Shown one piece after another: positions 12,514-14,574 of a stretch of 64,000 nt of DNA. Made by a program: the position numbers and the translations under genes. This DNA comes from Schmidtea polychroa. Lineage: Eukaryota. The stretch lies in contig CM097886.1 in assembly GCA_044892525.1 (NCBI GenBank), forward strand, positions 163,978,312 through 164,042,311. Direction: 5' to 3'. Each line of letters starts with the position of its first letter. Positions within the stretch are counted from its first letter, which is position 1. Below the pieces are notes generated by a model. That model was not told the origin of the DNA and did not search any database. It was given only the letters and a program-made list of their open reading frames with translations.

Positions 12514-12892
12514 TTATTTCATTGACTTTAACCAAGCCAAACAATGTTGTCCACATGTTTTTGTTATAGGATTTTGGTAACGTATTCGACTGTATTCAAT
12601 TGGCATTGACATTGATTGTAGTTTATTGATTAATATAGGCGGATAATAGAATCCCATTGGATCAAATGCATATATTTTGTCTGGTTTCACGTATACTGCA
12701 AGCCAATGTTCACCATTCAGATTAGCAGATTGAGTATTTACAATTATTGCTTTGTTGACATCTAAATAAGGTATTTTGTCTAATAGGAAAACACCTAGAA
12801 ATTCTTTTCCTATTAATTTTCTTCCGATAACATGTATCTGAATAGAACTAAATTAATAATAATTAAATAATTTAAATTAATTCTTACTTCAT
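12514..12892 (-). CDS. Adenain-type (peptidase C5) maturation cysteine protease, 112 aa, two exons (12892-12888, 12847-12514), 40-nt intron
   Basis: Hand translation: MNSIQIHVIGRKLIGKEFLGVFLLDKIPYLDVNKAIIVNTQSANLNGEHWLAVYVKPDKIYAFDPMG...RYQNPITKTCGQHCLAWLKSMK. Catalytic H (GEHW), D (FDP), oxyanion Q and C (TCG) are present. Intron is GTAAGA...TTTAG. Confidence 0.9.
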
Positions 12893-12926
12893 ATTTGATT
12901 AATTGATTTTCTATATTTGGTTTATA

Positions 12927-14150
12927 TTATACCAAAACAGTACGAGTAGATGTAATTTGAATTTCATTTTCAAAAACTCCATATACAATTACAGAAACAG
13001 CTTCAGTAAGTGAAGATGCGAATTTAATATCTAATCGCAAATTTCCACTTTGTGGTAACTGACTTTGATGAAGATCAAAATCTGGTGCCAATACGAATGT
13101 AAAGAATGGATACTTGCTCTTAAAATCAGACATGGTGATACCACAATTCATATTTTTATTTAGATAACCCATATTTCTAATAATCGATTGCATATAACTT
13201 GTACTATAATCATCATTCTCAAAATCTTGACTATATTTTTCGCGATAATCACTTCCTTTACTTAAAGTTATGGACTTGACATTAAAGTGATCAAATATAG
13301 AAAATGATTCTGAAAACGATCCACTAAATCTTTTACTAGATTGAAATGCAACAAGTATAAAATTAGGTAATCGTCTATCTCCAAATATTTGTTCTTTATA
13401 AAAAGAGGGAGAACCAATAGGTAATGAGAAATCAACAACTTCTTTGCTTCTTAAAGGATAAATTGCATTTTTTGTAGACAGACCAATTTGATGTCCTGCC
13501 AAAACCGATGGTTCAACACGAACTCTTCTAACCATTAATTTTGCGTCTAATAATAAAATTTTCGGTTCAATTTTCGCACAAGTTAAACTTAGAGTTGGAT
13601 TTGATCTTGTTAATTTAATTTGAACACTAACACCTGGTAGTAAATATTTAGGTTGATCAAAGAAATCAAATTGAAGTGGGGAACATAAAGAAAAGGAATT
13701 TGATTTTTCAATCCATGTTTTACTCGTAAGATCTTTGTTAGTATACCCCATTCCACCTAAAGATGTTCGTTTAGTATCTCCGTCATAATTTATAAGTGTT
13801 TCAATTAATGCTTTGTGGGCAAATCTATCATTTGATCCTTCAACTTTGATTGAATTAAAAATTAATTCAACATCTTTAAAAAGGGTTTGGAAGAATAAAT
13901 TATTTGGAATTACTTCTGATTCGCCTAAATTCTCACCTAAATTATTAACAACTTTCAATTGAATATATAACAAAGTATCATTCAAATCTAAATATTCAGT
14001 CTGCGATCCGTTTATGTAAAATTGAATCGAAGAAGAACCAGCATCTGTAATAGAATTTCTTGGGTAAATATCTTCAAATGCTCCATGTTCAATCACTGCT
14101 TGGGGAGAAGGTCTATCAAAAAGACATAATTCTGATTTAGCACTAATCAT
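12927..14150 (-). CDS. Polinton/Maverick double-jelly-roll major capsid protein (hexon-like), 407 aa, intact
   Basis: Motifs I recognise from Maverick capsids: KSELCLFDRPSPQ, YLDLNDTLLYIQLKV, PLQFDFFDQPKYLLPGVSVQIKLTRS, SGNLRLDIKF..L...VSVIVYG.FEN.IQI. No stops. Confidence 0.92.
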   Translation of the reverse strand: MISAKSELCLFDRPSPQAVIEHGAFEDIYPRNSITDAGSSSIQFYINGSQTEYLDLNDTLLYIQLKVVNNLGENLGESEVIPNNLFFQTLFKDVELIFNSIKVEGSNDRFAHKALIETLINYDGDTKRTSLGGMGYTNKDLTSKTWIEKSNSFSLCSPLQFDFFDQPKYLLPGVSVQIKLTRSNPTLSLTCAKIEPKILLLDAKLMVRRVRVEPSVLAGHQIGLSTKNAIYPLRSKEVVDFSLPIGSPSFYKEQIFGDRRLPNFILVAFQSSKRFSGSFSESFSIFDHFNVKSITLSKGSDYREKYSQDFENDDYSTSYMQSIIRNMGYLNKNMNCGITMSDFKSKYPFFTFVLAPDFDLHQSQLPQSGNLRLDIKFASSLTEAVSVIVYGVFENEIQITSTRTVLV

Positions 14151-14574
14151 TTTTCAAAGATGGTACCATATCCTTTCATTCTTTTGTTTATATGTTTCTT
14201 CATAATTTTTCGGCGTTTAAGTATTCCGCCTTTTTGTTCTTTATCATTTTTAAATACATCGGATACTTTATTAATTACTTCAGGTAAGTGTTGCATCACA
14301 GCTGGTAATGATTCTTTAATTTCAGAAATTGCATTTGATTTTAAAGCAGGCAAGATATTTGCATTGTTATTTATTACGTCATTAGCTGTTTTCATACCAA
14401 AATTTCCTTGCAAAAACGCTGATACAAATTTAACTTTAATTCTCGAGTATCGTTTAATATTTAAATAACTGATAAAAGACAAAATAAAATGTAACGTTTG
14501 TGCTAATTAATCAAAATTTAAAACGTAAAAACGCAATTTTAACCGTTTTTTAGAATTTCTGTTAAAGGTAACAT
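14147..14574 (-). CDS. Small basic virion/core protein upstream of the capsid gene (pVI/pX-like); predicted two exons (14574-14544, 14502-14147), 128 aa
   Basis: ORF 14147-14482 begins at a TTG. An upstream ATG TTA CCT...AAC G|GTTAAA...AATTAG|CA joins in frame through a 41-nt intron. Basic C-terminus with QKGG and MKGYG; its TGA overlaps the capsid ATG (ATGA). Confidence 0.6.

What the first reader, a model, noticed from the sequence alone, without database searches (positions are those of the whole stretch)
12514..14574. Adenovirus L3-like cassette: pVI-like protein, capsid, protease
Seen: three head-to-tail minus-strand genes. The small gene's TGA overlaps the capsid ATG, and 34 nt separate the capsid stop from the protease ATG with no AATAAA between them. 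Established: adenovirus L3 runs pVI, hexon, protease; adenain cleaves (M/I/L)XGX|G, and the released C-terminal pVI peptide activates it. Seen: the small protein ends in a basic patch and M-K-G-Y|G-TIFEK, an exact match to that consensus. Inference: a pVI-like membrane-lytic or protease-cofactor protein with a releasable C-terminal peptide.
Basis: partly seen in the sequence, partly recalled or inferred. Interest (0 to 1): 0.8.

Follow-up and report, generated by a model that had tools for sequence, protein, structure and literature searches.

The report
Maverick entry protein with glutamine cut-sites
This is a truncated copy of a known virus-like jumping element (a Maverick) whose small-protein, capsid and protease genes lie in adenovirus order; across relatives the small protein keeps repeated Gln-x-Gly-Gly-type motifs that are likely the protease's cutting sites and would free a membrane-piercing helix, while the proposed six-residue activator peptide is not widely conserved.

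Summary
The gene trio is real. It is the virion module of a high-copy Maverick (adintovirus-type) family, in a published gene order. The protease ATG is followed by a predicted 40-nt intron.

GTIFEK has no Cys, and the 112-residue protease lacks the adenovirus cofactor-binding cysteine region and C-terminal 70 residues.

What is conserved is Q-x-G-G / Q-x-G-x-G. It occurs twice before an amphipathic helix (95 of 137), often again before the basic tail (40 of 137), and at the protein-X-like site of a second small gene (10 of 12). The likely reading is a pVI-like entry protein processed with a Gln-P4 code, and the helix is what the window copy has lost.

The module and the idea of a membrane-active role are published. 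I found no report of the Gln code in my searches. No cleavage is shown.

The parts
14147..14408 (-). 3' part (codons 47-132 plus stop) of the small pVI-like / Cupiennin-position gene; 5' 46 codons absent, copy broken at 14408
   Evidence: (tblastn 47-132 at 14407-14150, 100%)
14225..14236 (-). QKGG, the third Gln-type motif, just before the basic tail; predicted cleavage site
   Evidence: a Q motif after residue 65 in 40 of 137 representatives vs 5.9 shuffled
14165..14179 (-).
12927..14150 (-). 407-aa major capsid protein (hexon/double jelly-roll), open frame
   Evidence: Atlas features 0.98 to clusters with PF21738 DJR-like_dom on 15-24% of members (recognition value below the tool's threshold); no direct Pfam hit; pN/pS 0.10 among 30 copies
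12888..12892 (-). protease exon 1 (ATG plus 2 nt), predicted
12848..12887 (-). predicted 40-nt GT-AG intron of the protease gene
   Evidence: 40 nt in 28 of 30 own loci; same position, 37-47 nt, in 11 of 16 related loci; the other 5 lack it; splicing not seen in reads
12514..12847 (-). protease exon 2: minimal adenain-like clan CE cysteine protease with His (12708), Asp (12663), Gln (12576), Cys (12555)
   Evidence: Pfam Peptidase_C5 E 2.3e-5; invariant in 14 of 14; fold match to adenovirus protease Z 12.6, rmsd 1.9, 107 aligned
12513..12518 (-). AATAAA overlapping the protease stop; candidate polyA signal
   Evidence: an AATAAA near the stop in 22 of 22 copies tested; use not shown
   Evidence: no homology to sister copies; a dispersed ~370-bp repeat follows at about 14786-15152
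11418..12477 (+). element DNA downstream of the protease, shared by a subset of copies, with a 276-aa ORF of unknown function (11577-12407)
   Evidence: no Pfam hit
1876..4484 (.). terminal-repeat-like, tandem-repeat-rich end of the element (diverged, about 74-87% to sister ends)

Best explanation
The window holds a truncated virion-gene module of a high-copy Maverick (adintovirus-type) element, whose small protein likely works like adenovirus protein VI: the element's own adenain-like protease is predicted to cut it after Gln-x-Gly-Gly / Gln-x-Gly-x-Gly motifs, which would unmask a membrane-disrupting helix for cell entry. Shown: gene order, copy number, the break at 14408, protease fold and catalytic residues, motif conservation, amphipathicity. 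Inferred: the 132-aa precursor is packed inside the capsid. Cuts after residues 17 (QSGG) and 29 (QYGT|G) remove a propeptide and expose helix 30-50. A third cut after 107 (QKGG) frees a 25-residue basic tail that likely binds DNA or carries a nuclear signal. The same code likely cuts the protein-X-like protein (QKGG) and the polymerase N-terminal region (QIGG). MKGY|G is at most a clade-restricted extra site. The window copy itself has lost both N-terminal sites and most of the helix, so it is likely non-functional for entry.
For: At least one Q motif in the first 60 residues in 130 of 137 representatives (shuffled 5.8), two in 95 of 137 (0.1), and P4 is Gln at 151 of 222 ..GxG sites there. 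The same holds in the 72 weakest hits: 67 with one, 48 with two, 30 with a third site although only 9 of 47 query rows had it. In a different gene, the 128-codon ORF matches Pfam Adeno_PX at 105-123 (E 2.7e-6), the match starting inside its QKGG. Adenovirus pX is cut at residues 32 and 51, and the motif is in 10 of 12 related loci. All 3 polymerase ORFs that include the N-terminal region carry one; hexon 0 of 36, protease 0 of 16, penton 1 of 35. Five Q motifs in 3723 aa of one set of sister ORFs vs 0.53 shuffled, P 0.0008; classic motifs 3 vs 3.1. Hydrophobic moment peaks at 0.72 for residues 31-48, and 93 of 115 homologs have a significantly amphipathic 18-mer right after the last N-terminal QxGxG; AlphaFold helix 31-60. 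Adenovirus protease accepts Gln at P4 as a minor form (PMC4246237; PMC6048507). Synteny: hexon follows in 35 of 36, penton precedes in 34 of 35, protease follows hexon in 16 of 16.
Against: No cleavage, virion or membrane activity is measured. The homolog sets were found with queries that contain the N-terminal motifs (patterns; profile), so N-terminal counts are partly circular; the related loci are also redundant. No sequence link to pVI: no MCPVI hit among 47 rows (25 of 27 families shown) and none in PDB. The AlphaFold model is low confidence (pLDDT 59). ATPase ORFs carry the motif in 3 of 10, so it is not confined to expected substrates. The third site is absent from 97 of 137 representatives. 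Constraint on the small gene among copies is only suggestive (4 synonymous, 4 nonsynonymous, pN/pS 0.25, p 0.059).
Confidence: 0.65

Rival explanations
1. One reading: the protease cuts MKGY|G and the released GTIFEK activates it like pVIc.
For: Exact classic motif at a C-terminal position (3.5% by chance); kept in 15 of 46 near homologs down to about 52% identity and as LKG[YH]G in 3 of 38 related loci; starts with Gly and holds a Phe, two of the pVIc hot spots.
Against: 2 of 137 distant representatives, 0 of the 72 weakest; 2 of 28 sister copies carry MKVYG; 6 residues against 11, no Cys, and the basic patch stays upstream of the cut; no Cys in the 20 residues before the oxyanion Gln in 14 of 14 proteases (AVP Cys104 lies 11 before Gln115); the protease aligns only to AVP 3-134.
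Confidence: 0.06
2. A longer C-terminal peptide, cut at the third Gln site and ending in basic residues plus [D/T]-I-F, acts as DNA-binding sled or cofactor for the protease.
For: A [DTSN][IVL]F motif in the last 15 residues in 63 of 137 representatives (shuffled 3.2) and 37 of 46 near homologs; tails after the third site are 40% Lys/Arg; pVIc is basic and ends in Phe.
Against: Tail length varies from 10 to 82 residues; no conserved Cys on either side; the motif lies next to the capsid start codon, so nucleotide-level constraint or capsid binding could explain it.
Confidence: 0.15
3. The Gln-Gly motifs are cut by another enzyme (host SUMO protease, or the OTU-like domain proposed for Maverick polymerases) or are uncut structural repeats that bind the capsid; the helix may then be a core or scaffold element.
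For: SUMO leaves a QTGG footprint (PMC3443746, one passage) and SUMO proteases share the fold; a vOTU protease is proposed in polinton polymerases (PMC11161782); spacing of the two N-terminal motifs is narrow, 12-16 residues in 93 of 95, as for a repeat.
Against: The G-x-G form is frequent and is an adenain/virophage-protease form; the motif sits at the protein-X-like boundary; the element carries its own protease with intact catalytic residues under purifying selection (pN/pS 0.16, p 0.013).
Confidence: 0.2

Closest known systems
Beta-class adintovirus (Maverick/Polinton) virion module with 'Cupiennin' and 'GasderminX' (Starrett et al., PMC8502044; Macc class in PMC11071296)
   Same: Order penton - small gene - hexon - adenain (map labels in Supplementary Fig. 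S2); a second small gene with a protein-X-like C-terminus; integrase with chromodomain; membrane-active role already proposed; duplicate pentons already noted.
   Different: The passages read give no cleavage rule for these proteins; identity with the published Cupiennin sequences could not be checked; the protease intron was not mentioned in what I read.
Adenovirus protein VI, hexon and adenain (L3)
   Same: Gene order (L3 order recalled); N-terminal cut near residue 30 followed by an amphipathic helix; basic C-terminus; clan CE protease fold.
   Different: No detectable sequence homology; 132 vs 250 aa; Gln rather than Met/Ile/Leu at P4; no Cys-linked 11-residue cofactor; protease about 112 vs 204 aa.
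Adomavirus LO6 (Welch et al., 10.1101/341131)
   Same: Virion core protein that clusters with adintovirus cupiennin, has pVI/pX resemblance and appears in virions as low-mass bands read as adenain-cleaved.
   Different: Motifs reported there are (MIL)XGXG or L(LR)GG, not Gln-P4; a circular virus without integrase.
Mavirus virophage protease MVP (PMC6048507)
   Same: Cuts GG|X and GX|G in virion proteins.
   Different: Its main substrate is the capsid C-terminus; here the capsid has no Q motif (0 of 36) and the predicted substrates are small core proteins.

Membership tests
Maverick/Polinton (adintovirus) | adenain-like cysteine protease | tested here: met
Maverick/Polinton (adintovirus) | [quoted passage not shown] | tested here: met
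   Atlas features 0.98 to PF21738-bearing clusters; no direct Pfam hit; not folded
Maverick/Polinton (adintovirus) | rve integrase (with chromodomain) and A32-type packaging ATPase | tested here: met
   in sister copies; absent from the window
Maverick/Polinton (adintovirus) | protein-primed family B polymerase | tested here: inconclusive
   1380-codon ORF in sister copies, 45-56% to ORFs in related loci; Pfam gave no polymerase hit; family B motifs recognised by eye from recall; absent from the window
Maverick/Polinton (adintovirus) | terminal inverted repeats | tested here: met
   about 950 bp at 89% in inverted orientation at both ends of a sister copy; one end only in the window
Maverick/Polinton (adintovirus) | target-site duplication | not tested
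   termini not mapped
Adintovirus 'Cupiennin' gene class | position between penton and hexon in a module with a pX-bearing small gene | tested here: met
Adintovirus 'Cupiennin' gene class | sequence similarity to the published Cupiennin proteins | not testable with these tools
   the supplement is held cut and shows no sequences
Adenovirus protein VI | sequence homology (Pfam MCPVI, solved pVI chains) | tested here: not met
   profile-profile search against pVI was not available
Adenovirus protein VI | N-terminal protease site followed by amphipathic helix | tested here: met
   predicted only; lost in the window copy
Adenovirus protein VI | 11-residue C-terminal cofactor with Gly1, Cys10, Phe11 | tested here: not met
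   Cys in last 15 residues in 11 of 137 (shuffled 6.7)
Adenovirus protein VI | membrane lysis and protease activation | not testable with these tools
   needs experiments

The most novel reading that the evidence does not exclude
Animal Mavericks of this class run a complete adenovirus-like maturation programme with their own code. A minimal ~112-residue protease cuts only after Gln-x-Gly-Gly / Gln-x-Gly-x-Gly, SUMO-like at P4, in a pVI-equivalent, a protein-X-equivalent and the polymerase precursor. The freed basic tail ending in [D/T]IF serves as a non-covalent forerunner of the pVIc sled. This would give the first substrate map for the Maverick protease and place adenovirus entry chemistry in its polinton ancestors.
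Probability: 0.25. Interest if true: 0.7.

Novelty: new member of a known kind. Interest (0 to 1): 0.42.

Why it matters
Maverick virions had not been observed as of the 2023 paper read, and I found no paper naming the substrates of their conserved protease. A motif conserved across well over a hundred diverged homologs, and found in three different genes of the element, gives exact peptides for a protease assay and exact neo-termini to look for by mass spectrometry. The family here is young and abundant (at least 150 near-identical small genes), so natural expression may be detectable. The window copy itself is an ordinary broken insertion.

Tried and rejected
Expression: no run on record as RNA held the stretch. 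Four contig sets laid on a sister stretch showed no listed joint at either predicted intron (15 of 48 joints shown; one intron lay in a skipped repeat), so splicing and shared 3' ends are undecided. Binding of the C-terminal peptide to the protease has no structural verdict. IMG/VR gave no relative and phage records only noise. Pfam and PDB searches for the small protein gave only weak unrelated helical hits; the Atlas gave unnamed clusters at 0.93 with a low recognition value. The small protein and the pX-like protein are not homologous by hhalign (1.7%). A first protease pN/pS of 1.66 came from an indel-shifted copy; after dropping 1 of 22 anchored copies (8 of 30 did not match the anchor) it was 0.16. 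In one search, 13 of the best 150 representatives were left out for length (<90 or >200 aa). L090-L092 were left out as false hits. A spliced gene from ATG 14574 was rejected because that DNA is outside the element. Earlier findings of the scan: none by sequence or first word search; eight phage notes of no bearing. Literature searches for a Gln rule or Maverick protease substrates listed none: the terms QXGXG, QxGG and Q-X-G-X-G had 0 occurrences in the 30 listed of 239 papers. Subscription papers, RepBase notes and the unread supplements (sequence files of PMC8502044; all bioRxiv supplements) may still hold it.

Full report
Observation. That ATG meets a stop at codon 3. The protease frame runs 12852-12514 and is reached through a predicted 40-nt GT-AG intron at 12887-12848. 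The lack of AATAAA in the spacer means little (0.07-0.09 expected; six such hexamers on this strand of the cassette).

Context. The capsid protein has 102 matches of 102 scored at 98-100% in the own genome, from 4883 candidates; the small protein has 150 of 150 scored at 99-100%, from 3277. In 28 of 29 other loci homology to the window stops exactly at 14408, and those copies carry a 132-codon small gene. The window keeps codons 47-132 only; its upstream DNA is unrelated flank. Sister copies as they lie in the assembly carry, in order, two small reverse genes, an A32-type ATPase, a 128-codon ORF, an rve integrase with chromodomain, two penton-like ORFs (named from position and recall, no Pfam hit for the one tested), the small gene, capsid, protease and a long polymerase-like ORF, between inverted repeats. 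None of the upstream genes or the polymerase is in the window. The host is an animal-type genome (GPCR fragment at 1129-1521). Variants among copies are mostly synonymous: capsid pN/pS 0.10, protease exon 2 0.16, small gene 0.25 with p 0.059.

A classic (M/I/L)xGx|G or (M/I/L)xGG|x motif lies in the last 15 residues of 15 of 46 homologs from the word search (shuffled mean 1.6), nearly all of them the closest ones. It lies there in only 2 of 137 representatives from the profile search (shuffled 4.2), 0 of the 72 weakest and 5 of 38 complete ORFs in related loci, two of those at another position. Two of 28 sister copies read MKVYG. pVIc is 11 residues with strictly conserved Gly1 and Cys10, and is bonded to protease Cys104 (PMC4246237, passages). 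GTIFEK has no Cys. The protease model (pLDDT 92; built from stop-to-stop frames, some with intron-derived N-terminal residues) matches adenovirus protease best (Z 12.6, rmsd 1.9, 107 aligned; tied within 1 Z with a bacterial deubiquitylase) but spans only residues 3-134 of 204. None of 14 proteases has a Cys in the 20 residues before the oxyanion Gln, and they end 12-29 residues after the catalytic Cys. A pVIc-type covalent cofactor is therefore unlikely.

What is conserved. The alignment and the wide set show one architecture: short N-terminal segment, QxGG or QxGxG, L-P-x-F-x-G, a second QxGxG 12-16 residues on, an amphipathic basic helix, a helical middle, often a third Q motif, a basic tail and a terminal [D/T]IF. 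Counts are 130 of 137 with one N-terminal motif, 95 with two, 40 with one after residue 65 and 63 with the terminal motif, against shuffled means of 5.8, 0.1, 5.9 and 3.2. The N-terminal counts are partly circular because the queries held these motifs. Less circular: the third site is in 30 of the 72 weakest hits but only 9 of 47 query rows. The 128-codon gene has QKGG where its Pfam Adeno_PX match begins, with the motif in 10 of 12 relatives (one has MKGG, one QKGQ). Adenovirus pX is cut at residues 32 and 51 (PMC8156859 section 4.2); equating the Maverick site with the cut at 51 is my inference. The polymerase-like ORF has QIGG at 217, and all 3 related ORFs that include this region have a Q motif. 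Hexon (0 of 36), protease (0 of 16), penton (1 of 35) and integrase (1 of 12) largely lack it; ATPase has it in 3 of 10. Adenovirus protease tolerates Gln at P4, so the motif fits the extended rule but is dominant here.

Mechanism. Shown: anatomy, conservation, fold, amphipathicity (moment 0.72 at 31-48; 93 of 115 homologs significant). Inferred: the precursor is packaged, the protease cuts after 17, 29 and 107, helix 30-50 disrupts membranes at entry as pVI 34-54 does (PMC8156859, passages), and the basic tail binds DNA or directs nuclear import. Two N-terminal cuts recall pVII, cut at 13 and 24. Confidence 0.65. Rivals: GTIFEK cofactor 0.06, long basic tail as cofactor 0.15, another protease or uncut repeats 0.2 (SUMO's QTGG footprint, PMC3443746, one passage; vOTU proposal, PMC11161782, passages). 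The tail-cofactor rival can coexist with the best explanation.

The intron. It is 40 nt in 28 of 30 own loci (one has a changed acceptor, one a deletion). In 11 of 16 related loci an ATG-NN-GT donor with an in-frame AG 37-47 nt on sits at the same place with different sequence. The other 5 have no such gap and an in-frame Met at or near the projected start. This is strong comparative support; reads did not settle it.

Known work. Starrett et al. (PMC8502044; passages and first part of the supplement) describe Cupiennin and GasderminX as predicted membrane-active genes of Beta-class modules, with map labels in the order penton, Cupiennin, hexon, adenain. Welch et al. [quoted passage not shown] Buck et al. 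(PMC11071296; passages) group such proteins as Macc, with pVI and pX as examples. The Pannagram preprint (passages) uses cupiennin/gasderminX to define a polinton group. Jeong et al. (passages) state that virions were not yet observed. PMC2172760 (passages) added nothing. So the cassette and the pVI analogy are in print; that this gene is their Cupiennin rests on position, not on sequence. My searches listed no statement of a Gln-P4 rule or of the protease intron, but the library lacks most subscription papers.

Verdict. Real but broken copy of a known module; works like pVI (likely), is not shown to be a pVI homolog. New member of a known kind, interest 0.42.

Noticed in passing
window 7447 to about 11417: A multi-copy repeat of at least 4 kb (94-98% to about two dozen full-length matches), often in same-strand pairs 17-40 kb apart, interrupts the Maverick; it looks like a long solo LTR of a very large retroelement and holds the ORF 7952-8719.
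   Followed up: partly
L031 about 6922-6963: The integrase of own-genome copies has a 42-nt GT-AG insert bounded by an 11-nt direct repeat; 12 of 12 related loci have one uninterrupted ORF. It looks like a recent intron gain by duplication.
   Followed up: partly
L031 4680-5192 (-): Sister copies encode a TATA-binding-protein-like ORF (Pfam TBP, E 1.3e-15), also found in 5 related loci.
   Followed up: no
L031 7570-9610: Two tandem penton-like ORFs of about 340 aa; several related loci also have two, others one.
   Followed up: no
L037, L040, L041: Rearranged copies: tandem and head-to-head (inverted) duplications of the left arm, and a penton N-terminus fused to the 276-aa accessory ORF.
   Followed up: no
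window 11577-12407 (+): 276-aa ORF without Pfam hit, present downstream of the protease in only some copies (7 of 29 loci); other copies have different DNA there.
   Followed up: partly
window 24386-25945 (+): 519-aa hAT-family transposase-like ORF (Pfam Dimer_Tnp_hAT).
   Followed up: no
window about 19200-23100 (-): Fragments that look like a decayed LTR retrotransposon (integrase-, reverse-transcriptase- and gag-like pieces, judged by eye).
   Followed up: no
window 1129-1521 (+): First exon of a rhodopsin-family GPCR (Pfam 7tm_1, E 1.7e-17); the element end lies about 350 nt after it, possibly within its intron.
   Followed up: no
window 50848-51263 and 38118-38358: Near-perfect inverted repeats (150 nt 99%; 115 nt 95%), MITE-like.
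   Followed up: no
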